A model generated the notes under the pieces. The model saw only the letters and a program-made list of their open reading frames with translations. It had not been told where the DNA came from and searched no databases. The translations under genes were made by a program, and so were the position numbers. Of a stretch of 51,249 nt of DNA, positions 869 to 46,639 are shown one piece after another. Origin of the DNA: Chiloscyllium plagiosum (Eukaryota); the NCBI RefSeq assembly GCF_004010195.1, contig NC_057718.1, positions 50,980,819 through 51,032,067 on the forward strand. The letters are read 5' to 3'. How positions within the stretch are numbered: the first letter of the stretch is position 1; every line of letters begins with the position of its first letter.

Positions 869-1160
869 AAGAAAATAAATTGCTCTTCTTTAACCCTTAA
901 TGGGAATTTTGAAACTCTGCTGTGCAATGTTATCATGCCAATATATTATTATGCTCTTTTAAACTTCTCTCAGTCTCAGTGAAGGGGTTAACTAATTTAA
1001 AAAAAACATTTTGTTAAAACCTTTACAAAAATTAATTTAGCGCAAATGTGTTAACTGTCTGTATGATAAAATTCCTGATGTGGAGACGCCTATTGGACTG
1101 GGGTGGACACGATCAGAAGTCACATGACACCAGGTTATAGTCCAACAGGTTTATTTGAAA

Positions 1161-1197
1161 TCACAAGCTTTCGGAGCGCTGCTCCTTCATCAGGTGA
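1161..1197 (-). ncRNA. Minimal type-I hammerhead ribozyme-like motif (PLE family B)
   Basis: Minus strand tcac-CTGATGA-a-GGAGC-agc-GCTCC-GAAAGCTT-gtga. Core boxes, 5-bp stem II, stem I tcac/gtga, and a palindromic AAGCTT in place of stem III. Confidence 0.7.
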
Positions 1198-1244
1198 CGT
1201 GAAAAGAAGCACACAGGCACAGAATTTATGGGTAGAGAGATCAA

Positions 1245-1515
1245 GGTGGCACAGTGGCTTAGTGGTTAGCACTGCTGTCTCACAGCGCCAGGGACCAGGC
1301 TTTGATTCCAGCCTTGGGCGACTGTCTGTGTGGAGTTTGCACATTCTCCCGTGTCTGTGTGGGTTTCCTCCCACAGTCCAAAGATGTGTAGGTGAGGTGA
1401 ATTTCCCATAGTATTAGGTGCAGTAGTCAGAGGGAAATGGGTCTGGGTGGGTTACTCTTTGGAGGGTCGGTGTGGACTTGTTGGGTTGAAGGGCCTGTTT
1501 TCACAATGTAGAGAA
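1245..1515 (+). mobile_element. HE1-like tRNA-derived V-SINE
   Basis: A-box/B-box head (gtggcttagtggttagcactgct...tttgattcc), central tgtgtggagtttgcacattctcccgtgtctg domain and tail ggacttgttgggttgaagggcctgttt. Matches more than 10 other copies in the window. Confidence 0.85.
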
Positions 1516-2286
1516 TCAAAAATAGATCATACAAGTGGCAGATTTCAAATGAACCTGTTGGACTATAACCTGGTGTTGAGTGACTTCTGACCTGAATAAT
1601 TTCGACAACTAGTTTATTGTTTTGTGCAATCGACATGAAGTAAAAATATAACCATACAAAAGAAGTAGATCAAGAACTGGCAGAAGCGTTTGTTATTACT
1701 TTTTTTGGGGGATTTGTGCATTACTGGCAAGACCAGCATTTGTAACCCATTCCTAAATGCTCTTGAACTGCACGTCTTACAAGGTCATAGCTAATTCTGA
1801 TGAAATTCTGCAAAAACCTTCAAATTCTGATTGGCAATTACTCTGCATCAAGAGCGCTCCAAACAAGTCCCCTACGTCAAGACAATTTAAAGGGTTGACT
1901 CACTTAAACTTAACAGTTACCCGGGAAATGTATTTGACTGAGCACGGCATTAAGGAGCGCAAGCAAAACTGAAGTCATTGGGAACTGGGGGAAGACATTC
2001 CATATTGGAAACAAAGGAAGATGGTTGTGGTTGTTGGAGGCCGATCACCTCAGTTCCAGGACATCTCTGCAGGATTTCATGATCGCACCCCAGGACTAAC
2101 CATCTTCGTCTGTTTAATTAATGATCTTCCCTCCATTACAAGGTGAGAAGGAGATGTTTGCTGTACCATTCAGTACCATTCTCATCTTCGCAGATCCTGA
2201 AGTAATCAACATCCGAAAGCAGCAAGACTTGGACAATATCCAGATATCCATTTGCATCACACAAATACCATGTAATGACCAGCTCC

Positions 2287-2483
2287 GAGTTGAGAGTGTG
2301 TTGCTGGAAAAGCACAAGCAGCTCAGGCAGCATCCGAGCAGCAGGAAAATCGACATTTCGGGCCGGAGCCCTTCATCAGGAAATTATGATTTTCCTGCTC
2401 CTTGGATGCTGCTTGACATGCTGTGCTTTTCCAGCAACACACTCTCAACTCTGATCTCCAGCATCTGCAGACCTCACTGTCTC
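2287..2483. mobile_element. PLE-derived fold-back element (family A)
   Basis: Inverted arms gagttgagagtgtgttgctggaaaagcac.../...gtgcttttccagcaacacactctcaactc. TSD ccagctcc at 2279-2286 and 2484-2491. Confidence 0.85.
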
Positions 2484-2725
2484 CCAGCTCCAATAAGAGA
2501 CAATCTAACCACCACCTCTTGACATTCAAAGATGTTACTATTAACATCCTGGGGATTACCATTGACCATAGACTCAACTGGACTCACCACATATCAATGG
2601 ATACAAGAAAAGTCAGAGACTAGGAATACTGCAGCACTTCCTGAGTCCCCCAAAACCTGTCCACCATCCACTGAGCACAAGTCTAAACGTGATGAAATAC
2701 TGCACACTTGCCTGGATGAGAACAG

Positions 2726-2856
2726 GGAGAAAGTGAGGACTGCAGATGCTGGAGATCAGAGCTGAAAAATGTGTTGCTGGAAAAGCGCAGCAGGTCAGGC
2801 AGCATCCAAGGAGCAGGAGAATCAATGTTTCGGGCATAAGCCCTTCTTCAGGAATG
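2726..2856 (-). mobile_element. Single-arm PLE family A terminus with hammerhead motif
   Basis: Minus strand cattcCTGAAGAagggcttatgcccGAAAcattg...cagcatctgcagtcctcactttctc. Near-TSD atgagaacag (2716-2725) and atgagagcag (2854-2863). Confidence 0.8.
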
Positions 2857-3134
2857 AGAGCAGCTCCAACAACACTCAAGAAGCTTGACACCAACCAGGA
2901 CTTGTTTGGCTCCACATTCACAAATATCCATTCCTTCCACCAGTAAAGCTCAGTAACACCAGTGTATACCATCTACAAGATGCACTGCAGACATTTACCA
3001 AGGATCCTCAGACAGCACCTTCTAAACCCATGACCACTACAGTTTAGGCAAACAAGATACAGCAGAGATATGATAACAGCACGACCCACAAATTTCCCTC
3101 CAAGCCAGTCACCATCCTCACTTGGAAACATGTC

Positions 3135-4620
3135 ATAATCATAAATCATCTAAGCAGAATCAGTATGGTTTCATGAAAGGGAAACGCTGTCTGACAAATA
3201 TGTTAGAGTTTCTTGAGGAAGTTTCAACCAGAGTGACGAGAGGGGAACCAGCAGATATGTTGTATTTGGACTTCCAGAAAGTGTTCGACAAAATGTCCCA
3301 CAAAAAGGTTAAGTCATAAGCTAAGAGTCCACTGTGTTGGAGGTAGTATATTTCCACAGATAAGGAATTGGCTCATGGGCAGGAAATGGTGAGTGGGAGT
3401 AAAGGGTTCTTTTTCAGGTTGGAGACGATTGACTAGTGGGTCCATAGGGATCAGTGCTGGGACCTCATCAGTTTATAATATATATTAATGGCTTGGAAGA
3501 AGGAAGTGACTATGCTAAATTTGTAGGTAATACTAAAATAGGTGGAAAGACAAGTTATGAGAGGGACACAAACAGTTTACAGAGAGATATTGATAAGTTA
3601 ACTAAGTGGGCAAATGTTGGAAATGGGTTGCTATATGGGAAAATATGAATCTGTTAATTTTGGAAGGGAGAAGAAAAGACAATATTATTTAAATGGATAA
3701 AGTTTGTAGAAAGTTACAACACATCAGTTCGTGGGGGTACTTATGCATGAAACACAGAAAGCTAGCACACAGCTGCAGCAGGTAATCAAGAAAGCAAATG
3801 GAATATTGGACCTTAGTTCAAGGAATTTAAGAGTAGGGAAATCGTTCTGCCACTGTTAAGGTGCTGGTGAGACCACATCTGGAGTATTGTGAACAATTTT
3901 GGCCCCCTTTTGTAAGGAAACATATCATTTCAGAGGAGTTTCACTAGGATGATCCCTGTGTCTGGAGGGATTGCCTTATGAAAAAATGGCTAAACCGGTT
4001 GGGAATCTACTCACTGAAATATTTCATTGAAACATGAAGAATTCTTAAGGTGCTTGACAGGGTAAATGCTAAGATAATGTTTCCCCTCATAGAAGAGTCT
4101 AGGTCCAGAAGGCATAGTCTCAGACTAAAGGGATGCCAATCTAAGAGGAGAAAGTGAGGTCTGCAGATGCTGGAGATCAGAGATGGAAATGTGTTGCTGG
4201 AAAAGCGCAGCAGGTCAGGCAGCATCTAGGGAACAGGAGAATCGACGTTTCGGGCATTAGCCCTTCTTCATGCCCGAAACGTCGATTCTCCTGTTCCCTA
4301 GATGCTGCCTGACCTGCTGCGCTTTTCCAGCAACACATTTCCATCTCGGATGCCAATCTAAGACTGAGATGAAGAGAAATTTCTTCTATCGGAGGATTGA
4401 GTGTCTTTGGAACTTCTTTGCACACAAAGCTTTGGGCTAGAATCCTTGTGTATATTTAAGACTTAAATAGATAGATTATTGAACAGTCAGGGAAATCAAG
4501 GCTCATGGGCAAAGAAAGCGGACGTGAGGAATACTGTATTAGCCATAATCCAATTGAATGGCAGAGCAGGCTCGAGAGGCTGAATGGCCTACTGCAAATC
4601 TTACTTCCTATGGCCTTATA
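3135..4620 (+). mobile_element. CR1-clade LINE, RT domain to 3' end, decayed
   Basis: QNQYGFMKGKRCLTNMLEFLEEV...YLDFQKVFDK and LGPHQFIIYINGL..AKFVGNTKIGG, with many frameshifts. Confidence 0.9.
4147..4347. mobile_element. PLE-derived fold-back element (family A), young copy
   Basis: Perfect 78-bp inverted repeat at 4180-4257 and 4270-4347 with a 12-nt spacer. Perfect 16-bp TSD ggatgccaatctaaga at 4131-4146 and 4348-4363. Confidence 0.92.
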
Positions 4621-6944
4621 TCACCATTCCGAAGTATCACTGGGTCAAAATCCTGAAACTTGCTCCCAAAGAGAATTGTAGGGTGTACTTGCAGTCAGTG
4701 AACTGCAGTGGTTCAAGATAGCAGCTCACTATCACCTTCTCAAAGGAAACAAGGGATTGACAATAAATGGTGACCCAGCTGTATTCCATGAATGAACTAA
4801 AAACAAACTCTGGACCTAACACTCTTTGAACAGTTGACACAACACAATCCTCATCCAACCTGATCCCTTGACCTCGCGACCTTACCAACTTACCTGGCAT
4901 CCTGCCCATCTCTGCCACCTTAGCCATTGGCACACTACCCACCACCACACACAGTTACCACTACTCCCTTTTCCCCATCCAACCAACTCCCATGCTATCC
5001 CTACACTTCCCTCACATACTTACCCTTTAATAGGAGATGTCAAAGTGGCTGGCAGTGCTGCTGAATATTTAAATTTCAGAATATAGTGCTGTGATTGGTG
5101 TAAAAGAGCGCATCATAGGTGATGATTCACTCCTCTGCTCATCTGATATTTCTAAGACAGGTCTGTGCTGTTTGGAATGGAAGGCTCCTGTCCAGGAATC
5201 TCCACTGCAAAACTAATATGAAATTAAGTAGTTATTTCTTTAAAGTCAGAGCAGGTCAAAAGTAGGTTTTCCACTTCGATTGACATCTTTGGGCCAATAT
5301 CTATCATGTCCATGTAATGTGCACCTTCTCACTAACATGCAATAAACTGCATCTTGATTAAGAGAATGGTTTTTTCTCATTATACTCATTTGTGGCTTTC
5401 CTCCACCAAACCAGAACTAGCAGGTTCTATAGATCCCTAACCTAAAAGAGAATGGTGAAAGCAAATATACTCCATGGTGAGCAATAGTGCAGACAGACTA
5501 ATACAACAGTGGTCAACGATGATGAATGCTCATATGACAGGGACATTCCCTTTCCATGATCATTTCCCCACATTTATTCTTCAAACTGCCCTGCTGAAAG
5601 ATAAATCTGAATGTATTATTGCACAATTTAGTCTTTACATTTTTGTTGTCTGTTCAACCCAGTTAACTTATGTCCCAATCCCTGAAACCATTCCAGCTTT
5701 AAACCTGTGGACAAAAGCAGTTCAAATGAATGATCACAGACCAGAAACATTCATTCTGTTGTTCGCCTTACAGATGTTGTTTGGCCTGCTGAATATTTAC
5801 AGCATTTTCTATTTTTATTTAGCCTTTAGAATTTGTTGAAGGCTATGTGTCACCTCTGTATGAGGCATTCCATTATTTCGATAGTTATTTCTATGATGAA
5901 TTACTGACTGGACACATTTACCAAGTAGCCATCCAAGAATGTATCAGCTATTCGACGCATCAGGTTGCTAAGCACATCGGAACAGCATCTTGTTGTATCT
6001 GATTATCCACTCAGCATTGCTTTTGCTGTTTGAAAAATGTACTTTTTTTTGCATGCATGTGGTGTAGCATGTCTTAAAAATTCAATCAATGCTTTACTAC
6101 TTTCTTTTCAAAAATCAAGGAGAATTGAAATAATGAAAAGCCTAAAGATAAGGAACTGCACAGTCAACTTGAAAGGAATCACAAGATTTTAGACATTTTA
6201 CCATGAAAATGCTTTCATATTTCCTCTTTTAAAGAAGTAGCATTAATTTTTCCATTTCAGTCAAGATTTTCCAGTGAGATTTACGGTGCCCAGTCCACCC
6301 TGGTTTGCACCAACTTGTGGCCATCATGTCTACTTAATGCCTATTAACCCCTAATCCTCCCAGACTATTTGCCATTTCTGTCCTCTGCATCTCCTATACA
6401 CTCATTGAGGGCACCTCACCATCACTTTTGCTCCTACACCATCGCTATTTGCTTACTCATCCCCATCATAATACTCAAGCCCTCACTTTTTCAGTCTGAG
6501 AGGATTAAGACCAGCAGACTGAGGTGGCGAGGGATTGGCGGACATGGGCTCCACTTCAAAGGAGTAAAAAGTACTGAAACTGGCTGGAGAATGGTATGAA
6601 AATGCAGGTGGAGACAGGAAGACTTCAGCGGATAACCAACCCAAGCTGTATTGCGTCGCACTACTCGCCCACTATCACCAACAATAAATTAATCTTAACT
6701 TGCATGAGCTTTTATCCCTCGTACTCAACTCATTCCCTGCCTTCCCACATGCAGTCACGAATAGTACCTAACAAATATGTCCAATGAGACCAGTACTGGA
6801 GACCCTCAGCGTCATTTCCATATCTTTGGAGAAAGTTACTCAACCTTCAGATCAAGCACTAGCAAGGGTTTCACCTGCGGCCTCTACCAGCTCAGAGGCT
6901 TTCACCTTGGTGGGTTCTCTCTCTAGATTAGACTGGAATACTCA

Positions 6945-7565
6945 GTCGCATTTAGAAGGATAAGAGAGGAATTGATTGAAGTGTGTAAATTTTTAACAGG
7001 GCTGGACAGACTTTTTTATGGTGGATATTTCTCCAGTTGTGGAGTCCAGAACCAGGGGACACTGACAATTTAGGGCTGGGATGAGAAAAAAAATACTTCA
7101 CTCAAACAACAATGAACCTGAAAATTCTCAACTATAGAAGGCTGGGGAGGCCGTGTCATGAATATACTCAAGACAGGGGGATTTCTTTTCGATTTTAAAG
7201 GCATCGGGGGTCTGCTGAGAAAGCAAGAATATGGTACTGAGACAGGAGGATCAGTTCATGATCCTACTGAACGATGGAGCAAGATCAAAAGGCTGAATAG
7301 GCAAAAGTGAGGACTGCAGATGCTGGAAATCAGAGGCTCGATTAGAGTGGTGCTGGAAAAGCATAGCAGGCCAGGCAACATCCGAGGAGCAGGAAAATCG
7401 ACGTTTCGGGCAAAAGCCCTTCATCATGCATATGTCTGGTCATCTTCTTAGTGCGGTTGGTGATTGCCATGGAAACCCAATTCTAATATACATTCCTGAT
7501 GAAGGGCTTTTGCCCAAAATATCGTTTTTCCTCAAAGGGCTGAATAGCCTACTTTCTATATTTCT
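6945..7565 (+). mobile_element. CR1-clade LINE 3' fragment
   Basis: tttagaaggataagagaggaattgattgaagtgtgtaaa...gagtccagaaccaggggacac...ggctgaatagcctact, a typical CR1 3' end. Split by a PLE insertion. Confidence 0.75.
7301..7531. mobile_element. PLE family A fold-back insertion with a captured host segment
   Basis: Left arm 7303-7426, right arm 7491-7532 (cattcCTGATGAagggcttttgccc). TSD tcaaa(a/g)ggctgaatag at 7285-7300 and 7532-7547. The spacer 7419-7492 matches 7838-7911. Confidence 0.85.
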
Positions 7566-9454
7566 ATGAAGCGGGAGCACAATCTAATGAATACATGACT
7601 GGCATGTCTCTTTAGCTAATCAAGGAAGAGACATTTCAGTTTTTTGGTACTTAGAGGACTACTGGAGACCAGGCACCTGCAGAGCCCCAGGTACAAGACA
7701 ATCCCATTGTCTCCATCATTCATGATGTTGTGAAAATGCATAGGTAGACACATGAACCACAAATAGGTTTGTCAGAGCAGTTGGTAAAATGAATTAAGGG
7801 ATGGAAGAGTTTATCGACCTTGTGAGCAACGTGCTGACTTCATCATGCATATGTCTTGTCATCTTCAATGTGCGGTTGGTGATTGCCATGGAAACCCAAT
7901 TCAAATATACACAGTGTTCACCAGATGCTTGTATGGACTTGTACTACATTATTGCAGCCATAGGTGCTCAGCATCAATAGGAAGATGAGTTGGGTACATG
8001 TGATCTTGAATGGACTCCAGATGCCCCTTTCCCTTGGGCAGACAGGTCGGTGTTATTGAGAACCAATAGAGGGTATTTGCAACATAGAGGACTCCAAAGC
8101 ATCTTCTCAGGATATTGGTTCCCACGCCCTCCATCTGCCCCTGGACTGCAATGCCAAAGTCTCCACAAGAGTCAGATGAGGATGGTGAGGCTGCACAGAG
8201 GCAGGACATTCTCAGCAGGTGTAGGCCTCCTAAGCTCAAATACTTCCAGGAACAACTACCCAGATCTATTAGGCCAACATGTTTTATATATATGCACCTG
8301 CACTCTAAAATGTGTGTTTTGGTGTCTTTGTCACTGCTGGGCCTGGTGAAGACGTACCACATGAGAGAGAAACAGCATGTTCAGACATCTTAAATATGAA
8401 AGTTGTTGCAATTGCCAAGCATTGCTCATCTTTCACCAGCAGCTGAACCCTTGACTGAAAATAAGCATCACATATACCAGAGATCCTTGAAACTTGACAT
8501 GGATGACTGAAGCCAAAACATTGCACTTCAAATTAAACATTAATGAGACTAAACTGTGCAGGGATTGTGCTAAAGCATGGACTTGCAAACATTGTTCCAT
8601 CTACCTTGTGAGTAAATGGAAGGAAACAGTGATGATTCCACACATCTCTGTGGGGAAAGGTCCATTCTATGCCTGAGCTTCTCAAGGGAGCACATGAGTA
8701 TTCAAAGTTGGGTGTTGATAATGGGTAGATTACATGTTCACACTACATGTATATTGTAGCACGTTTTGTCAGTGTTCTCGACAAAATGCTGTTTCTTACA
8801 GGTTCAACACTATCCTACAGGATGCTCAAGTATTTCAGGGTGTTCAACAGACTACATGTGCTCTGAAAGGTTGGAGGATTACCAATGATAGAAGGGCTAT
8901 TCCAACCTGCTGGCTATCATGGGAGATTTCACTGCTTTTATTATTCAGACAGTGTATGTGCAGCCTGAAGAGTAAAAAGCAAATTTACCTCAACTTTAAC
9001 CTTATTGCCATACAATGTTAGTGCTTTGTTTCACTAACTGCTCCTTTTCCTCTAATAATGAGTAGGACATGTCATGTGTAGATATCGGAAAGTCAATTAC
9101 CTGGAGGTGGTAATCATCCAGTCAAATGATAAATAGGCATTTAATCAATGACACAAAAAAAATCAGATTTTCAAAAATAACCAGATTTATATGTACATTA
9201 TTCTCATGACAGGTTGTTTGATGTGTAGCCAACAGAAAGTTACACAATTAAAATTAAGTCCAAACCCAGCTCATTTTGTAAGTGGGTTTCAAGTAGGTTT
9301 TCTACTGGCTTATCAAGCTCTGCAATGTATTGCTTTGTCAAGGTCTGTTGGACAGTCATCCCATCAATGTGCTGACCCTCATGCTTCTCTTCATTGTCAG
9401 GAGGTTGATGTTAATCTTTTTCTGCATCCAGAATAATCCCCCACTTTGTCGGAT

Positions 9455-10035
9455 CCACAGCACCACAATAATGACATGGCATGCCTTTTCTGGATTATAT
9501 TGCAAGGTCCCATGACAGCAATTCAGACATTGAAATTTCATTTTTAGGAATCCTATAGTCTTGGTCCACTATGGCTTCGGGTGAAGCATGGACAGTGTTG
9601 TATCTTTAACTGTGCCAGTCTGAGAGCTTTGTAAAAGTGGCATCATCCACATTTGGAAGGAGTAGCCCTTGTCTTCCAACTGCCTGTATAACCCAGGACC
9701 TTGGAAGGATATATGAACCTGAGAGTTCTCTCATACGGATGCAGCGCCCCAGATATCTAGCACAGAAACCTCGATAGAATGGAGGCTTTTCTTGCTGATG
9801 CACTCTCCTGGTGTCACAGCATCTGACACCTGGGAGAAGCCAGCTATGGAGATTGCCACTTGCTCTGACTGCTCGACACTCTTTCTCATCACAAGGGAAG
9901 GACATGAACAGCTATGACCTGGAGAAAATGACATCAGTTGCATCATGGATTATTTATAGATGGAGGTTTGGGAGATGTCACACAAGACCCCAGTTACTCC
10001 CTGAAGCACATCACTGGCATAAAGATTTAAGACAG
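9455..10035 (-). pseudogene. Fossil PIF/Harbinger (HARBI1-like) DDE transposase
   Basis: Collinear motifs across frames: AITVAAVLNLYASDVLQGVTGVLCDISQTSIYK; IAGFSQVSDAV; ISKKSLHSIEV; LEDKGYSFQMWMMPL; MKFQCLNCCHGTLQYNPEKACHVIIVV (compare Harbinger-type IAGFP..GAID, NRKG.HS.NVQ, LGDxGY, RFRCL..SGG.LQYSPEK). Confidence 0.8.
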
Positions 10036-10455
10036 CTGCAACTGTGATAGCTAACACAATGACATGACCAGACAGCCCCTCCGAGAACGAGCCCTGCTCT
10101 AGCAACACTCCCATTGCCCTTGGCTATTCAGAGTTCCCCACTATAAAATGCTGTCTGCCTCTCCCTCTGCACTGACCAGTAAAGTAAGCCACAGAAGCTG
10201 GCTGCCTGCCACCTAGTACTGAACAGCCTGTGATCTTAAACAGCAATACAAGGCACAAAGGGTGTCAGCTTTTGAGTAACTGTAAAGAGAATGAGCATTG
10301 AGAAACAATCGTAACGGCCTCTACATTCACGAGACACATGTGTCCTTGTGTATTAGGAACCGGAAACATACAAACTGCAAGTGTCTCTGAGCTCTGAAGT
10401 CAAATACTGAGGTGTGTTGTAGTGTGAGAGGTAGTCTGAGACCAGGCATAGTGAT

Positions 10456-11196
10456 TAAAGACAAGATTAGAGTGGTGCTGGAAATGCACAGCAGGTCAGG
10501 CAGCATCTGAGGAGCAGAAAAATTGACGTTTCGGGCAGGAGCCCTTCATCAGGAATGAGGCTGGAAGACTCAGGGATGGAGAGATAAATAGGAGGGGGTG
10601 GCGCTGGGGAGAAGGTAGCTGGGAGCGCAATAGGTGGATGGAGATAAGAGTAAAGGTGATAGGTCGGAGAACAGGGTGGAGCCGATAGGTGGCAAGGAAG
10701 ATTGATAGGTAGGACAGGTCATGGGGATGGTGCTGAGCTGGAAGTTTAGAACTGGGGTAAGGTGGGGAGGAGGGGAAATGAGGAAACTAGTGAAGTCCAC
10801 ATTGATGCCATGGATTGAAGGTTTCTGAGGCGGAAGATGAGGCAATCTTCCTCCAGGCGTCGGGTGGTGAGGGAGTGGCAGTAGAGGAGGCCCAGGACCT
10901 GTATGTCCTTGGCAGAGTAGGAGGGGGAGTTGAAGTGTTCGGCCACAGGGCGAAGGGGTAGATTGGTGCAGGTATCACGGAGATGTTCCATGAAGTACTC
11001 TGCGAGAAGGCATCCATTATCCCCAATGTAAAGGAGACCGCATTGGGAACAATGGTTGCTTCTTCATTCCTGATGAAGGGCTCCTGCCCAAAATGTCGAT
11101 TTTCCTGCTCCTTGGATGCTGCCTGACCTGCTGTGCATTTCCAGCTCCACTCTAATCTTGACTCTAATCTTCAGCATCTGCAGTCCTCACTTTCAC
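10456..11196 (-). mobile_element. 5'-truncated Penelope-like element (family A) with GIY-YIG C-terminal half and inverted terminal repeat
   Basis: Minus strand HCSQCGLLYIGDNG...MEHLRDT...PVAEHFNSPSY...RRLEEDCLIFRL. Inverted arms at 10462-10558 and 11064-11160. TSD catagtgat at 10447-10455 and 11197-11205. Confidence 0.9.
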
Positions 11197-12404
11197 CATA
11201 GTGATGAGAGAGACTGATGGTTTGCCAATGGTGCTTGCATTGACAAAGGGTGGGGGAGGACAGTGTCCATAGAGCAGGCAGGCCACTGTGGAGAAGATAG
11301 TGTTGGATGAAGGTCTGGAGAAGTGAGCAGTTAGCTGCTGCCACCAAGTAACCGTTCTAAGTTTCATGTTGAGGACTGGTGCTGCCTAGTCTCTTAGGGA
11401 TAAAAAAAATGGGAGATGCATATAAATAAGGCAAGTTGGGCTAATGAGATTAACGGATTAGCTGTATTTGCCACTTAATCACAATATTTTGAAGTTGTCA
11501 TTTGGATCTTAGGGGGAAAGATTGGCAAACCTTTCCTTGACATTGAGATTGTGCCTTTTTTTTCCATTCTTGCTGTATTTTTCCAACTTTCTCACAATTG
11601 CTCAGGCTGGTTAAGGAAGCAAAATAATCCACCAATAGTTTTGCCTTAAGACTTGTCACCACTTCTGTGTACAATTTTCGAGTTATGTATCTTTATTTTT
11701 GCCTTTCTAATTGTGTTCGAATAAATTTATTTTTAAAAAGTTAAAACTTCAATAGCATCAGGACAAGTTGGTCCTGAAACATAGTAACAGCCAAAATCTT
11801 TTGCTCCCACGACATAGCAACCTAAGTTTAAGACATTATCAGTTCCTCATTATTTGGAGATGGGTTAATATCATTAAATTTCTTATAAGTGTGATAGCAG
11901 CAACATCTGAAAGACTGCAGCTTTCCATGAAGACTTAGCTTCAGCTTCCCAGAACAGCTAATGTTACCTGCATCCGAAGATTAAACTTAATCAAAGAATT
12001 GTTTCATTGATGTGGGAGAATTATACACATTAGATTGAAGATTATTCATCAACTGAGATGGGGGATGGGGCCAGTGGGGGAGCTGCTCATTCCCCAGGGG
12101 GTAGTCATTACTTGCGCTGAAAATGGATTTTCTATTAGAATCAGTTGTGTCTTTGAAATGTCAATTGCATGCAAATCTCACTGATGCTTGTCGGACATTT
12201 CAATGATTGTTCTTGGGAACTAACTATTTAAATTGTAAACCGACTCTCAAAATGAAATGAAACCAAAGATGAGCAAAAGGCCACTATTCACACTTTACCC
12301 ACATGAATGTTAAAGCTTGATAATCTATGTCCACAGTAAGGAAGAACTATTTTGAAGTGGGGCGTTCCATAAATAATCCAGGCTAAAAGCTGGACATCAT
12401 GCTT

Positions 12405-12740
12405 CAGGGGAGGCAAAGTGGAGGGACTAAACAAACAGAGAGGGAAGGAGAATAAAGAAGGGTAAAAAAGAAAGGAAGGGACAGCATATGGGAAATTGAC
12501 AGATAACAAGAACAAAGGAAGAAAGGAGGGGAATGAGAAATAGAAGAGGGGACAGGAAGGGAGAGAACTGGGGATGGAAGTGGAAGGAAGAAAGTAAAAG
12601 AGAGGGGAGGGAAAAGAAGACGAAAAGGAGAAGAGACAGAAGAGGAAAGAAGAGGAGGTGAAGGGAAAGGAGGAATCAGGAATGAAAAGGAGATATAATA
12701 AGGATGCACAGGGTAATAGGGATATGGACAAAAAGAAATG
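12405..12740 (+). repeat. Polypurine (GA-rich) low-complexity tract
   Basis: About 330 bp that is almost entirely A/G on the + strand. It explains the F/S/P/L-rich minus-strand ORFs. Confidence 0.85.
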
Positions 12741-15327: not shown

Positions 15328-15528
15328 GGAGAAAGTGAGGACTGCAGATGCTGGAGATCAGAACTTAAAAATGTGTTGCTGGAAAAGCGCAGCAGGTCAG
15401 GCAGCATCAAAGGAACAGGAGAATCGACGTTTCGGGCATAAGCCCTTCTTATGCCCGAAATGTCGATTCTCCTGTTCCTTTGATGCTGCCTGACCTGCTG
15501 CGCTTTTCCAGCAACACATTTTTAAGCT
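15328..15528. mobile_element. PLE-derived fold-back element (family A), young copy
   Basis: Near-perfect inverted arms of about 80 bp. Perfect 15-bp TSD ctgacatccagtctg at 15313-15327 and 15529-15543. Confidence 0.92.
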
Positions 15529-17014
15529 CTGACATCCAGTCTGCACTGTGATATATTTGCCTAATGTCTTTAGTTAGAAATGACATTCGAGACACCTCCT
15601 ATGTCCTACTTATTATACTTCACTGTGTAGTCACTGCTCAAAGCAACACCTTCATTTTGCCTGAGGTAATTTATCTTCACTTGCACATTTTGCTGAAGTT
15701 TAAGATCTGCAGCAGGAGGAAGAATGTCATTATCTGGAAAACTGTTACATTCCAGCTGAAAGTTTCTGCAGAAGCAATTAAGAACAAAGGACTTCATGAC
15801 ATTTTTAGTCCACCTTCTGATTTAACTTTGCATTTGCCACATTTCTTAAATCTAAATGTATTGTCATAACTGTAACTTGAGGTAAGTTTTACTATTACGA
15901 CCTGGAATGGATACATTTTGGACTATCATTTAATTATGAATGGATATTAATGCAAAACTAAATATTTTCAGGTTCCTAAGTTGATAATTTATTTCTATTT
16001 TACAATGAAATGCAAGTTTTTCTCTAAGACTGAAAGACTCCGAGATGAGAAATGTTTTTGTTTTATTTCCTGAATAGAATCTTTAACCAGTGCAAGTATT
16101 GGTACGAATGAGATGGTTTTATTGATGAAACAGAATAGTAGCTAATGCCCATTCTTCAATCCATTGTTCATTTTGTCTAATTAGATGGTTAGGAAAGAGG
16201 AGTACGATCATCTTTGGTCCTTTACCCACTCCAGCGCTATCCATTCTACTATTCATCCATGGGTCCATACTCTCTGTGCTTAGCTGCATTTTCATAGACG
16301 TATTACCCGGACTGTCTTTGCCCACTCATTATATTATTTCTGTAAAAGACATTTTTGGTATTCCTATTTGGTCAAGCATGGCCTTCTCCTTTGAAATTTG
16401 TGTCAACCTTGTATTTTTAGTTTCTATATCTAATTCTCTATATAGTGTCTCTTGTGTAAAGATTCCATTATTTTATGTATGTCCACCATTAAGTTAATTG
16501 GTCTACCGCTGGATTTATTCTCTTATGAAAAAAAATGAATAATGTTAGCTATCTGCCAAATCTTTAGCATGATATATGTAATGGTGAATGTACAATCGCC
16601 CCCAACCTTTCTATTATTTAGATGAAATCCATCCAGATTAGCAATTTCATTCTAAGGCTGATGAATTTATTAATTATCAAAATACTTTTATTTCATTTTG
16701 ATCTCTTCTAATGTCATGTTCACCATGCTAGTCTCTTTAAAAAGCAAACTGTACCAGTTTGGAAGCATCTTTAAATGTTCACTATTTTAGAGAAGCATTT
16801 ATACTGCTTTTTTACAAAGGACATTTTTGTATAAACATGTGCTCTGCTGCAATATAATTTCAGATTTCCTTAGAAGATGAGAACTATGACAGACCTTGAA
16901 GTTATTACTCCTCTGCTCTCCAGTTGTATTCATCTGATAAATGTGTTCACAACGTTTCCTTTCACCAACATTTCCAATGAAATTGGAAAACGTTGGGCTT
17001 CCACAAATGGTCGA

Positions 17015-38013: not shown

Positions 38014-39375
38014 TGTTATAAAGCGAAGGCTGAACCCCAACCCCAAACATCTCAAACTGAAACGTCCAAAGAGTGGCACGTTGCCCTTTAATCTGTAAAG
38101 TCAGTGTGATAAGTGGTGTAACCTGCTGTAGTATTCAAAGTAAACCCCTGACACTTTAAAATCAACAATCAGCAATTTATTTAACCAACTCTCACGGTAA
38201 ACAAATGAATGAAACTACTAACAAACTGAATAAATCCTTCCTAACTACTGAGTATTCTGGAATAAATCAAGATTCTTCTGACTTTAAAATCAACAATCAG
38301 CAATTTATTTAACCAACTCTCACGGTAAACAAAATGAATGAAACTACTAACAAACTGAATAAATCCTTCCTAACTACTGAGTATTCTGGAATAAATCAAG
38401 ATTCTTCTGGTATGCTGTTCCAATCAATACATGTCCCACTCAGATAACACAAAATAGAATTTAATATCTCAGATTACAGCCAGGTTAAGTGTCTTCCGGA
38501 ATATTCTGTGCTACCTTCTGTCAGGGATGTCTCCTCCGATTCCTCTCAGGAATGCTAATTTAAATTGGTGAAATTGAAAACCTGTTTTCTTCTCCTGCTA
38601 ACTGTACAGCCTTTTGATACAAATGTTTCAGTTCAGGTGCTGTCTGTTGTGATGCTGCTCCTTTAAGAAGATTATGTTGTTCTTGGTTTATTTTCAGGAG
38701 GGGTTGTAAAAGGCAGAGCTTCCCATTCGTCTAGGATTAAGGATTTCGCAAATAGCTAACATACTGACTAAGGCAACAATCAGGGAAAAGGGTTTAACAT
38801 TTTTTTTTCTAAAACCCTTCTACAATGAAAGGGCAGTTGTCCCAATTTTTTTTTCCCCTGGTTTGGGTTTGGGTTTTCGCAAGCAGTCTGTCCGAAGCTG
38901 CTGCAGGAAGAGAAGTTTCCTGATTCAACAGATGTTTCTGGCTGACTCTGTCTCTAACATTTCTCCTGTAAGAACGCGTGTTTGAACTGTTTTTTTTTTG
39001 CCAAAGGGGTGTGTTTATGAGAATGTTGCATGAAATCAGAACAGCTCCTTTCTTAAGTTGCAGGGAGATCGTGATGGTCGGATTTTCAAACGGCTGCTAT
39101 TCTAAATTCTGTTTTCTTTTGCTTGTGTTTGTTTAGTGGTGTGTAAGTTTTTGTTTTACTGTAAGCCAAGTGGTTTCACCAGCTGCATCACAGCTGGGAT
39201 ACCTCGACCTAAAACACCTCAGGGTTGAAGAGTGTGTTGCTGGAAAAGCACAGCTGGTCAGAAAGCATCCGAGAAGTGGGGGAATTGATGGTTCAAGCAT
39301 AAACTCTTCATCAGGAATGTTTATGGTGTGGGCTACCTTAGAATATTTTGAGGGAGTCCGGCTTGGTCCATAACA
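38014..39375. mobile_element. Probable LTR fragments (Gypsy-like), possibly two in opposite orientation
   Basis: Begins TGTTATA and ends CATAACA. AATAAA on the minus strand near 38176. No TSD. A PLE arm is inserted at 39222-39320. Confidence 0.4.
38153..38409 (+). repeat. Tandem duplication of a 128-bp unit
   Basis: 38153-38280 and 38281-38409 differ only by one A in a homopolymer. Confidence 0.9.
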
Positions 39376-39632: not shown

Positions 39633-39837
39633 TGCGGAGGTGCTGGTGTTGGATTGGGGTGGACAAGGTCAGAAGTCACACGACACCAAGTGAGAATCCC
39701 AACAGATTGATTTGAACTCTTAGCTTTCGGAGCACTGTTCCTTCATCAGGTGAAGTGATGAAGGACCAATGCTCCTAAAGCTTGAGATTTTAAATAAACC
39801 TGTTGCACTGTAACCTGGTGTGGTGTGACGTCTGACT
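39633..39837. mobile_element. PLE-derived fold-back element (family B) with back-to-back hammerhead remnants
   Basis: agctttcggagcactgttccttcatcaggtga then tgatgaaggaccaatgctcctaaagct. Near-TSD tcaactctgc (39623-39632) and tcaactgtgc (39838-39847). Confidence 0.8.
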
Positions 39838-40388
39838 TCAACTGTGCATTCATATTGAACTTGATGGGATACTTTATCCAACTTGGTATATTTGAATCAT
39901 ATCACTTGGAGAGATTCATTTGAAACCTTTCAGGAGGTGAACTCAACAAGATTGAATAATTAAAAGTTACTTGGAAACAGCATGGAAACAGATCTTTCGG
40001 TCCAATTCATCCATGCTGACCAGATATTCTAAATTAATCTAGTCCCATTTGCAACACTTGGCCCAAATCCCTCTAAACCCTTTCTATTCATGTCCCAAAC
40101 CAAATGCTGTAGTTCTACCAGCCTCCTCCACTTCCTTTGGCAGCTTATTCCATACATGCAACACACTGCGTGAAAAGTTTGCCCTTTAAGTCCCTTTTAA
40201 ATCTTTTCCCCCCTCACACCCTAAACCTATGCCCTCTAGTTCTTACAACATCCTGAAATTGTTTCTGATGGAGAAGTCAATATTTTGGGTAGAACCCTTC
40301 TTCAGTCCTAAGGGTTAATACCTGAAATGCTGATTCCTCCACCTCCTGGTGCTGCCTGCCTTGTTATACCTAGCCTCCTACTTGTGTT

Positions 40389-41369: not shown

Positions 41370-42062
<693 letters not shown>

Positions 42063-45066: not shown

Positions 45067-46352
45067 CGTATATTGACGACATTTCTTCCTCCTGACCCAT
45101 GGTGAGGAGTCACTGAAACGATGACACAGTGATATCAACAAATTTCATCCCACCATCACACTCACTGTGAACTACTCTTTAGTATCTGTCTCATTCTTGG
45201 ACACATGCCGGTTCCAATGTGCCACAGCGAGAAACTGTAATGACCTCCTTAGGAGACAGACACGAGCTGCAACCAAAATGGTACCCTTTGTTGTCCAGTA
45301 CTTCTTGGGAGCCGAAAAACTACGCCACATTCTTCGCAGCCTGCAACACATCATCGATCAGGATGAGCACCTCACCGAGACTTCCTCCACTTCTCACCTT
45401 CAAACAACCAAACCTTAAACAGATCATTGTTTGCAGCAAACTGCCTGGCCTTAAGGCAACATGATACAACCCTGTCATGGCAGATGCTGCAAAATGTGTC
45501 AGAGTTTACCATCATTACATATGGAGATACCACACCCAATGAGTTTGCCAAGTACTCATGTGACTCAGCCAGCATTGTTTATCTCATACACTGCAAGCAA
45601 TGATGCCCTGAGGCATGGTATATTGGCGAGACCAAGCAGAGGCGACAGCAGCGGATGAATGGACACTGCACAACAATCACCAGCCAGGAGCGTTCCCTCC
45701 CAGTCGGGGAACACTTCAGCGTCCGGGACATTCAGCCTCGGACCTTCGGGTGACCATCCTGCAAGGCAGACTTCAGGACAGGCAAAAATGAAAGTGGCCG
45801 AGCAGAGTCTGATAGCCAAGTTCGGTGACCTTGGGTTCATGTCACACTACAGGGAACTCCACTACACTATACACTCTCTCAGACACACACACATGCGCGC
45901 TCCTCCAGACCAACACACTCATGCAGATCCTCTATCATACACATGCGCTCGCTCATATGCTCACACACGCGCGCGCACCCTCTCACAGACTTATACCCCA
46001 TTACACTCACACACATTCACACCTTCCCACATACACACATAGAATCAATCTGACCTAACATTGGGACACAGACTTTAACTGTGCATCTTCAATGTATTAC
46101 TTGAGCTGAGATGACATCTATTGTTAAAAGCTATCTTGAGAATGTAACTTTAAAAAAGTTCTGGGATTTACATATGAAGGAACCGAAACTAGCATGATCA
46201 TTCTAAAAGACGTAAGCTCAATTTGTTTAACAATACATTCCATGACACTGTAATCCTGTTGCTATAAAGTCTATGTCTAATCATTCTGCTCCACTACCAC
46301 CCGATGAAGAAACAGCGCTTCGAAAGCTAGTGGTTCCATACAAACCTGTTGG
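45066..46352 (+). mobile_element. Penelope-like element (family B): RT C-terminus, Cys-rich linker, GIY-YIG, 3' hammerhead
   Basis: RYIDDI...INKFHPTITLTVNYSLVSVSFLDT; PFVVQY..; PCHGRCCKMC; IVYLIHCKQ*CPEAWYIGET..QRMNGH..PVGEHF. CA-rich tract at 45880-46040. Hammerhead motif at 46297-46333. Confidence 0.92.
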
Positions 46353-46639
46353 ATTCGTGTTCGTTCGGGGGATCAACGGTTACAGGGAAAGGGCAGGAAA
46401 GTGGATGTGGGGAATGTCAGATCAGCCACGATCCTACTGAATGGAGGAGCAGGCTCAATGGCCTTCACCTGTTCCTATTTCTTATGGTTCCCGTGACCTT
46501 ACCTCTGATCCAAGGCCCTGGCTTGAGTATGTGCCATTACTGAGAGTGCTGGTTTTCCCTTGTGCAATACCAACAGTGCAGCAGCTGCTGAAATCTCTTG
46601 CTCCTTTGTTAGCTCTATGTGTGATTTTTACCTTTGAAA

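What the first reader, a model, noticed from the sequence alone, without database searches (positions are those of the whole stretch)
7285..7911. Fold-back element that captured 74 bp of nearby genomic DNA between its arms
Seen: the spacer between the two PLE arms (7419-7492, cttcatcatgcatatgtctggtcatcttcttagtgcggttggtgattgccatggaaacccaattctaatataca) is a near-identical copy of 7838-7911, about 300 bp beyond the right TSD. The left junction has 8-nt microhomology (cttcatca, the complement of the hammerhead TGATGAAG) and the right junction shares 'ca'. The whole unit sits inside a 16-bp TSD. Inference: this is a microhomology-driven template switch onto local host DNA or RNA during integration or hairpin repair. 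It would be a direct footprint of how PLE inversions form and a route to local templated duplications.
Basis: partly seen in the sequence, partly recalled or inferred. Interest (0 to 1): 0.75.

Follow-up and report, generated by a model that had tools for sequence, protein, structure and literature searches.

The report
Local DNA filler in Penelope fold-back
An old, dead, two-armed insertion of a Penelope-like jumping gene in a shark genome has a short copy of neighbouring DNA exactly where its arms meet, most likely filler copied while the insertion was being sealed, a kind of scar already known from other retrotransposons.

Summary
Real. 7419-7492 matches 7838-7911 at 69 of 74 bases, in direct orientation, 290 bases beyond a 16-bp TSD (15/16). 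It shares 8 bases with the left arm and 2 with the right. The arms are ends of a Penelope-like element (RT + GIY-YIG). A related species (two studies) has both outer junctions. The spacer keeps an ancestral base that this genome's source copy has lost, which argues against misassembly. No listed contig spans the spacer in any of 4 runs, so the centre itself is not read-confirmed. Each arm holds sequence the other lacks, so one-strand snap-back cannot explain it. Best reading: two cDNA ends were joined by microhomology-primed copying of nearby DNA (0.62); later repair of the hairpin centre is not excluded (0.2). Enzyme and template (DNA or RNA) are untested. The right arm is about 58 bases shorter than usual, unexplained. 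One of 8 two-armed units in the window has such a filler. Templated insertions are described for L1 and zebrafish LINEs, and host capture between pLTRs for rotifer PLEs. This scan already noted similar local captures at other loci of this genome (unchecked).

The parts
6932..7284 (+). Host site: decayed 3' end of an older LINE (CR1-like by recall), resuming after the insertion to about 7570
   Evidence: 60-65% matches to window copies at 33109-32760, 48966-48786, 36899-36694 and 46351-46458; the CR1 label is recalled, not from a call
7285..7300 (+). Left target-site duplication, 16 bp
   Evidence: 15/16 to 7532-7547; single copy in uninterrupted host-repeat relatives; present in organism B contigs 7123-7317 and 7223-7320
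7301..7426 (-). Left arm: PLE terminal repeat with the one-sided tail; lacks the 6 bases that normally precede the hammerhead core
   Evidence: 82-87% to other full-length window arms; alignment A1; 6 listed differences from the family majority in 126 nt (table 3)
7419..7426 (+). 8-nt microhomology shared by the left arm end and the source start (7838-7845)
   Evidence: P about 1.3e-4; nearest match of 8 nt or more in the searched range 2300-12500 outside PLE copies
7419..7492 (+). Templated filler: direct copy of 7838-7911 (64 nt between the two microhomologies)
   Evidence: 69/74; carries T at 7484, the base that organisms B and C have at the source position 7903
7491..7532 (+). Right arm: first 42 nt of the PLE terminal repeat, starting at the family's usual 5' boundary; stops about 58 nt before the place where the short arms of other copies stop; shares 2 nt with the filler and 1 nt with the TSD
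   Evidence: organism B contigs 7495-8291 in two studies
7532..7547 (+). Right target-site duplication
   Evidence: spanned by organism B contigs
7838..7911 (+). Source of the filler; continuous, orthologous DNA in organism B; no dispersed copy of 87% or more laid on it in run X6
   Evidence: tables 2, 3, 8; no protein relative found for the frame over it
10453..11197 (-). Reference copy, not part of the event: same terminal repeat joined to a GIY-YIG C-terminal body fragment plus an inverted arm, 9-11-bp TSD; ties the arms to a PLE
   Evidence: 60% identity over 104 aa to P0001, which has RVT_1 and GIY-YIG hits below the curated cut-offs and falls among RT/HTH_animal/GIY-YIG clusters

Best explanation
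A one-off templated insertion made while a two-ended PLE insertion was being sealed. (1, inferred from PMC11167929) The PLE protein nicks both strands 16 nt apart and extends both 3' ends on element RNA, giving two cDNAs that point at each other. (2, shown in sequence) The left cDNA ends at CTTCATCA, 6 nt short of the usual end; the same 8 bases occur 290 nt into the right flank. (3, inferred) The left cDNA end annealed there on the bottom strand of the opposite break end, which 5' resection would expose, and was extended by about 66 nt. Priming in trans on the other end gives a direct copy, as seen. (4, inferred) The extended end let go and was joined to the 3' end of the right cDNA through 2 shared bases; fill-in left the TSD intact. 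The polymerase could be a host theta-type end-joining enzyme or the PLE RT using DNA; the reverse order (2-nt jump first, 8-nt closure last) gives the same sequence. The product is dead on arrival and has no proposed function.
For: The filler sits exactly at the arm-to-arm joint inside an intact TSD. The 8-nt microhomology is significant and the nearest available. Each arm has sequence the other lacks (tail and about 85 nt on the left, CATTCC on the right), so two RNA-templated syntheses are needed; the same holds for copies at 2281-2484 and 10453-11197. In 4 of 4 other well-aligned two-armed copies of this family the short arm stops at the start of the tail, matching the two RT start sites reported in PMC11167929. 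Other copies in the laid runs show variable trimming (7368-7427 joined to 7490-7493) with short fillers at this joint (tables 5 and 5c, of which only the best-supported rows were shown), the pattern of end joining. The right arm keeps the family's usual 5' end (576-819 contigs per run continue with those letters behind 7426, table 7). Divergence of filler from source (5/74) fits an age like the insertion's (expected about 7, P(5 or fewer)=0.30). Four differences not shared with organism B's source are all transversions and include a 3-nt cluster, against 26-40% transversions in the background: weakly suggests error-prone copying.
Against: No listed contig spans the filler in any of 4 runs, including the run of the same species. 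The age test also fits a filler added after the A/B split (P(3 or more events)=0.41). The right arm does not end at the usual second start site, so it is not a clean example of two-ended priming. Theta-type inserts in C. elegans are mostly under 25 bp and primed within 10 bp of the break by one base pair (PMC5068794), and L1 templated insertions lie typically within 15 bp of the site; 74 nt from 290 nt away is atypical of both. The transversion signal is only P=0.14 when counted as two events.
Confidence: 0.62

Rival explanations
1. Later repair: the insertion first formed a near-perfect hairpin; a nick or break at its tip, in a later generation, was repaired with a templated patch from nearby DNA, trimming 6 nt from the left arm.
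For: The divergence counts do not exclude a younger filler. Organism B's source contig runs unbroken through a 42-nt stretch that would be shared with a filler like A's, as expected if B lacks it. Earlier unchecked notes report templated copies in this genome away from any PLE (e1-7858567, e1-7858040). The short right arm could be a second sign of later hairpin remodelling (a 58-nt loss between two CT dinucleotides would give the sequence seen; inference).
Against: Needs a second event exactly at the original joint that spares the right arm's usual 5' end. The unbroken B contig is weak evidence: no run, including species A, shows a filler-spanning contig, and graph cleaning can drop short paths next to very high-copy repeats (inference). 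The filler predates the change at 7903 in this genome's source.
Confidence: 0.2
2. RT jump onto host RNA: the PLE reverse transcriptase ran off the 5' end of its RNA, jumped to a nascent transcript of the locus through 2 shared bases, copied it, and the 8-nt match then closed the joint with the other cDNA.
For: The right arm ends at the usual template end, where an RT would jump. Template jumps are proposed for PLEs (PMC3846280, section 11). RNA needs no 370-nt resection.
Against: No host gene or transcript was found over the site: of 270 frames of 58 aa or more, none near the site gave a convincing host-gene hit; this scan misses short exons and no RNA run was laid. Copying stops at exactly the point that gives 8-nt complementarity, which both models explain.
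Confidence: 0.12
3. Not a local capture: the 74 bases come from another copy of an old dispersed repeat or from a master element, or are an assembly error.
For: The source lies about 1.4 kb from a decayed Harbinger-type transposase (DDE_Tnp_4, E=0.0038, below the curated cut-off), and depth rises on both sides of it (7616-7717, 7922-8023), so it may sit in an old repeat. No whole genome was available to count copies. The centre is not read-confirmed.
Against: Depth over 7718-7921 in run X6 is flat at one contig (15.4); X5 shows only a small unexplained excess. The filler has the ancestral base at 7484 and four private differences, which an assembler could not make from this genome's source. 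0 of the other 7 two-armed units in the window carry it. Both outer junctions exist in organism B in two studies.
Confidence: 0.06

Closest known systems
Complex insertions of endonuclease-positive Penelope-like elements: inverted 5'-truncated copy plus one-sided 30-40-bp tail (Craig et al. 2021, PMC8557442, passages; Frangieh et al. 2024, PMC11167929, main text parts 1-2 of 4)
   Same: Head-to-head terminal repeats, tail on one arm only, TSD, minimal hammerhead motif, RT + C-terminal GIY-YIG parent.
   Different: The passages read do not describe filler copied from the flank at the inverted joint; the right arm here stops well inside the usual second start site.
Host DNA captured between pLTRs in Adineta vaga (Arkhipova et al. 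2013, PMC3846280; passages and sections 9 and 11)
   Same: Unrelated non-coding sequence between solo pLTRs inside a TSD; microhomology at a 5' junction.
   Different: There the captured pieces are long or of unstated origin and the model is mobilisation in trans or self-priming; here the donor is identified, local (290 nt), short, direct, and the arms cannot come from snap-back of one strand.
L1 templated insertions (bioRxiv 10.1101/2024.08.27.596794, passages: 22 instances, with 3,598 insertions cited in the figure legend; typically under 250 bp and within 15 bp of the site) and end joining at L1 twin-priming junctions (PMC11702581, passages)
   Same: Non-element template under 250 bp duplicated into a retrotransposon insertion; proposed cDNA release and pairing with nearby DNA; preserved TSD.
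   Different: Different element class; donor 290 nt away; both arms copy the same RNA segment, which L1 twin priming on one RNA does not usually give.
5' extra nucleotides of zebrafish LINE ZfL2-2 derived from flanking DNA (Yamaguchi et al. 2014, PMC4245944, abstract and passages; the primary Kajikawa 2012 paper was not read)
   Same: Flank-derived filler that stabilises the join during integration.
   Different: Filler there is at the LINE 5' end/target junction; here it is between two cDNA ends in the middle of the insertion.
Polymerase theta-mediated templated inserts (PMC5068794, passages)
   Same: Prime on the other break end, extend, release, re-prime; direct orientation for priming in trans; raised error rate in the insert.
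   Different: Those inserts are mostly under 25 bp, primed by one base pair within 10 bp of the break; this one is 74 nt, 8-nt primed and 290 nt away.

Membership tests
EN+ Penelope-like element insertion | Parent encodes RT plus C-terminal GIY-YIG endonuclease | tested here: met
   The same terminal repeat is attached to a body fragment (10558-11064) 60% identical to P0001; P0001 has RVT_1 (E=0.0077) and GIY-YIG (E=0.00025), both below curated cut-offs, and nearest Atlas clusters are RT/HTH_animal/GIY-YIG. The reference copy is of a slightly different subfamily (87% in the arm).
EN+ Penelope-like element insertion | Inverted terminal repeat with a one-sided 30-40-bp tail | tested here: met
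   Left arm has the tail, right arm is inverted and lacks it.
EN+ Penelope-like element insertion | Short arm ends at the second RT start site (start of the tail) | tested here: not met
   4 of 4 other well-aligned two-armed copies do; this right arm stops about 58 nt earlier. This is a usual feature, not an obligatory one.
EN+ Penelope-like element insertion | Target-site duplication | tested here: met
   16 bp, 15/16; single copy in uninterrupted host-repeat relatives. A true orthologous empty site was not seen.
EN+ Penelope-like element insertion | Minimal hammerhead motif in the terminal repeat | tested here: inconclusive
   Core letters and the stem II hairpin are visible by eye and in folds, but Rfam gave no hammerhead hit at E up to 1. 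In this copy the left arm has lost the first core base and the right arm has decayed GAAA/cleavage letters. Activity not testable.
Templated insertion at a retrotransposon or break junction | Insert is a copy of identifiable nearby DNA | tested here: met
   69/74 to 7838-7911; only match in the window; single contig depth on the source in X6.
Templated insertion at a retrotransposon or break junction | Microhomology at the priming and closing junctions | tested here: met
   8 nt (P about 1.3e-4) and 2 nt (P about 0.16).
Templated insertion at a retrotransposon or break junction | Formed in the same event as the insertion | tested here: inconclusive
   Counts fit both a coeval and a younger filler; filler not seen in contigs of any run.
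Polymerase theta-mediated end joining | Short insert (under about 25 bp) templated within about 10-20 bp of the break | tested here: not met
   74 nt from 290 nt away against the ranges in PMC5068794. It works like TMEJ; it is not filed as TMEJ.
Polymerase theta-mediated end joining | Dependence on POLQ | not testable with these tools
   Needs de novo PLE insertions in POLQ-deficient cells.

The most novel reading that the evidence does not exclude
PLE fold-backs are routinely made by two independent cDNAs, one from each nick, whose 3' ends are then joined by an error-prone, microhomology-primed step that borrows DNA hundreds of bases to over a kilobase away. In this very high-copy shark family that would be a frequent, countable signature (1 of 8 two-armed units in this window; several more in unchecked notes on this genome), would overturn the self-priming explanation of head-to-head PLE repeats, and would make PLE integration a steady source of small local duplications.
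Probability: 0.35. Interest if true: 0.6.

Novelty: new variant of a known kind. Interest (0 to 1): 0.32.

Why it matters
How PLEs make their inverted ends and finish integration is still open: the in vitro work stops at first-strand priming (PMC11167929) and an older model invokes self-priming (PMC3846280). Copies like this one, where each arm holds sequence the other lacks and the joint carries traceable filler, favour two separate cDNAs joined end to end, and the side, orientation and distance of fillers can be counted across a genome in which the family is very abundant (tens of thousands of contigs laid per run). As a single old locus it has no evident function and adds one case to a known class of junction scars.

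Tried and rejected
Whole-genome copy count and genome-wide spacer census: no genome is held for this window, so only the window was surveyed. Read confirmation of the filler: 4 of 24 listed runs were laid, all contigs; none of the 32 listed pieces spans the filler, which proves nothing either way. Organism C (X13) covers both flanks (6800-7245, 7880-8291) but neither junction, so no empty site was seen. Simple snap-back of the left arm: rejected, the right arm begins with bases the left arm lacks. Secondary structure at the source as the cause of start or stop: rejected, the source folds worse than shuffles on both strands (z=+1.5 and +2.0). Source as a coding exon or named transposon ORF: no Pfam hit for the frames over it and no relative among 444 candidates (weak negative). 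Host gene over the site: none found among 270 frames of 58 aa or more. Local capture at other PLE junctions of the window: 14 centres and ends queried, 1 long local match, this one. Rfam: only miRNA hairpin matches below gathering score, treated as chance. Dating the filler against the A/B split: uninformative. Look-ups of earlier notes by sequence, near place and words returned nothing. Paper searches for a description of flank-derived filler at the PLE inverted joint found none; the single 'templated insertion' in PMC11167929 refers to RNA-templated product. The library lacks most subscription papers, and supplements were not read, so this is not proof of absence.

Full report
OBSERVATION. 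The described features are all present. Bases 7419-7492 match 7838-7911 in direct orientation at 69 of 74 positions; this is the only match of the spacer in the 51,249-base window and far beyond chance. A 16-bp direct repeat (15/16) bounds the unit at 7285-7300 and 7532-7547. It is a true target-site duplication: the unit interrupts the 3' end of an older LINE-like repeat, and uninterrupted relatives in the window carry the 16-mer once, for example the copy at 36899-36682 that aligns to the left flank through the TSD and on into the right flank (the name CR1 is recalled). The source starts 290 bases after the right TSD. The left junction shares 8 bases (P about 1.3e-4 for a random junction); the right shares 2 (P about 0.16).

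WHAT THE ARMS ARE. The same terminal repeat occurs at about a dozen places in the window. At 10453-11197 it is attached to a body fragment whose frame is 60% identical over 104 aa to P0001, a 486-aa protein named by its source as from Chiloscyllium punctatum. P0001 has RVT_1 and GIY-YIG matches below the curated cut-offs and its nearest Atlas clusters are RT/HTH_animal/GIY-YIG proteins. So the arms are ends of an endonuclease-positive Penelope-like element in a shark-type genome. The left arm (7301-7426, minus strand) carries the one-sided tail and lacks the 6 bases that usually precede the hammerhead core. The right arm (7491-7532) has those bases but is only 42 long. Rfam reported no hammerhead; the motif is recognised by eye and by a stem II fold.

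INDEPENDENT DATA. No whole genome is held. Of 24 runs listed I laid 4, all contigs, on 6800-8300: X15 (organism A, this species label), X5 and X6 (organism B, two studies), X13 (organism C). In B, contigs cover left flank, TSD and arm start (7123-7317; 7223-7320 with no differences) and right arm, TSD and source (7495-8291; 25 and 26 differences, 8 gap letters). The insertion is therefore shared by A and B, which differ by about 3.1% here. C covers only the flanks (6.2% apart). None of the 32 listed pieces spans the filler in any run, X15 included, so the centre is neither confirmed nor refuted by reads. Two facts still argue against misassembly and for direction source-to-filler: the source is continuous orthologous DNA in B, and at 7903 both B and C have T, the base of the filler, while this genome's source has A. 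No rows were listed at 7857 or 7867-7869 (37 rows were hidden, but rows with weaker support were shown), so those four differences probably lie on the filler or predate the A/B split. Depth on 7718-7921 in X6 is flat at one contig, so no dispersed copy of 87% or more was laid on the source; X5 shows a small unexplained excess at 7820-7870, and X15 has no cover at 7833-7921. Against my reading: B's source contig is unbroken across a 42-base stretch that a filler like A's would share, which could mean that B lacks the filler, although graph cleaning beside a very high-copy repeat can give the same picture (inference).

OTHER COPIES. Of 8 two-armed PLE units in the window, 1 has a long filler traceable to local DNA; 14 centres and ends were queried. 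The others join by short overlaps or a few untraceable bases. In the laid runs other copies of the family show joints from 7368-7427 to 7490-7493 with fillers of 1-12 bases (tables 5 and 5c; 15 joints and 12 fillers shown, 493 and 788 hidden), and 576-819 contigs per run continue behind 7426 with the letters this left arm lacks (table 7). In 4 of 4 other well-aligned two-armed copies of the family the short arm stops at the start of the tail; this right arm stops about 58 bases earlier. Either it was primed at an unusual place, or it lost its outer part between two CT dinucleotides; I cannot tell which.

MECHANISM. Shown in the sequence: position of the filler at the joint, direct orientation, donor on the right, 8- and 2-base overlaps, intact TSD, and that each arm holds sequence the other lacks (also true at 2281-2484 and 10453-11197; not at 4147-4351 or 15328-15545, which snap-back could explain). 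Snap-back of one strand therefore cannot make this copy unless the left arm was trimmed afterwards. From the literature: the anole Poseidon protein nicks and extends both strands and starts at two sites that bracket the tail (PMC11167929, main text parts 1-2). Inferred: two cDNAs, one per nick, had to be joined; the left one, trimmed by 6 bases, annealed at the nearest 8-base match (nearest match of 8 or more in 2300-12500 outside PLE copies, allowing trims of 0-15 bases) on the bottom strand of the right end, was extended about 66 bases, released and joined to the right cDNA through 2 bases. Priming in trans gives direct copies in theta-type repair (PMC5068794, passages). All 5 filler/source differences are transversions, three adjacent, against 18/48, 20/50 and 14/54 in the species comparisons; P=0.02 for four sites but 0.14 for two events, so only a hint of error-prone synthesis. 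I give 0.62 to formation during integration on a DNA template, 0.2 to later repair of the hairpin centre (the age counts fit both), 0.12 to an RT jump onto host RNA (no host gene found in 270 frames; no RNA run laid) and 0.06 to a dispersed donor or artefact (a decayed Harbinger-type transposase lies at 9359-10100, but no relative of the source frame was found).

KNOWN SYSTEMS. Inverted copy plus tail is the standard PLE pattern (PMC8557442, passages). Unrelated sequence between solo pLTRs inside a TSD, and a self-priming model for head-to-head repeats, are in PMC3846280 (passages and sections 9, 11). L1 templated insertions are reported as 22 instances, typically under 250 bp and within 15 bp of the site (bioRxiv 10.1101/2024.08.27.596794, passages); L1 inversion junctions are resolved by end joining and ORF2p can use DNA templates (PMC11702581, passages); much of the 5' filler of ZfL2-2 comes from flanks (PMC4245944, abstract and passages). 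It works like these. It is a PLE insertion by the tests met; it is not filed as TMEJ because length and distance fall outside the reported range. PMC9977147, PMC6155905 and bioRxiv 10.64898/2026.07.22.740005 (passages only) added nothing on filler. Searches found no description of flank-derived filler at the PLE inverted joint; supplements were not read and subscription papers are mostly missing.

EARLIER NOTES. After stating my reading I saw that this scan had noted similar captures at other loci of this genome: 236 bases from about 1 kb, 143 from 1.3 kb, 85 from 0.7 kb, a neighbour PLE from 1.1 kb and an R2 fragment, and also templated copies unrelated to PLEs. They are unchecked leads, not support.

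VERDICT. A real, old, single templated filler at the joint of a PLE fold-back; a new variant of a known kind of junction scar. Its value lies in the genome-wide count that it suggests. Interest 0.32.

Noticed in passing
window 9359-10100, minus strand: Decayed Harbinger/PIF-type transposase over several broken frames (DDE_Tnp_4 E=0.0038, below cut-off). The filler's source may lie in the other half of this old element; a protein search found no relative.
   Followed up: partly
window 10453-11197: Longer PLE insertion: terminal repeat, about 500 bases of GIY-YIG-coding body, about 9 untraceable bases, inverted arm with the tail, 9-11-bp TSD.
   Followed up: yes
window 2281-2484: Fold-back whose second arm starts at or next to the predicted hammerhead cleavage site after about 5 filler bases, while the first arm is complete; each arm again holds sequence the other lacks.
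   Followed up: partly
window 1085-1600, 39640-39860, 46298-46353: A second hammerhead-type terminal repeat family, with one compact fold-back (10-bp TSD) and one unit interrupted by another repeat.
   Followed up: partly
window 41391-41996, minus strand: C2H2 zinc-finger array relic, 84-bp period, split over at least two frames.
   Followed up: no
window 38153-38409: Two tandem 129-bp units at 99% identity close to a run of N; possibly an assembly overlap.
   Followed up: no
window 7464-7478 and 7883-7897: Filler and source both keep an imperfect palindrome that resembles an RFX X-box (resemblance recalled, from no call); no function implied.
   Followed up: no
window 7495-7717 in organism B: Both B contigs are 8 letters longer than the window over 7495-8291, at a place not listed (probably under repeat pile-up, possibly in the right arm).
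   Followed up: no
window 7491-7532: Three of the four differences between the arms are at CpG sites of the right arm, while the left arm keeps those CpGs.
   Followed up: no
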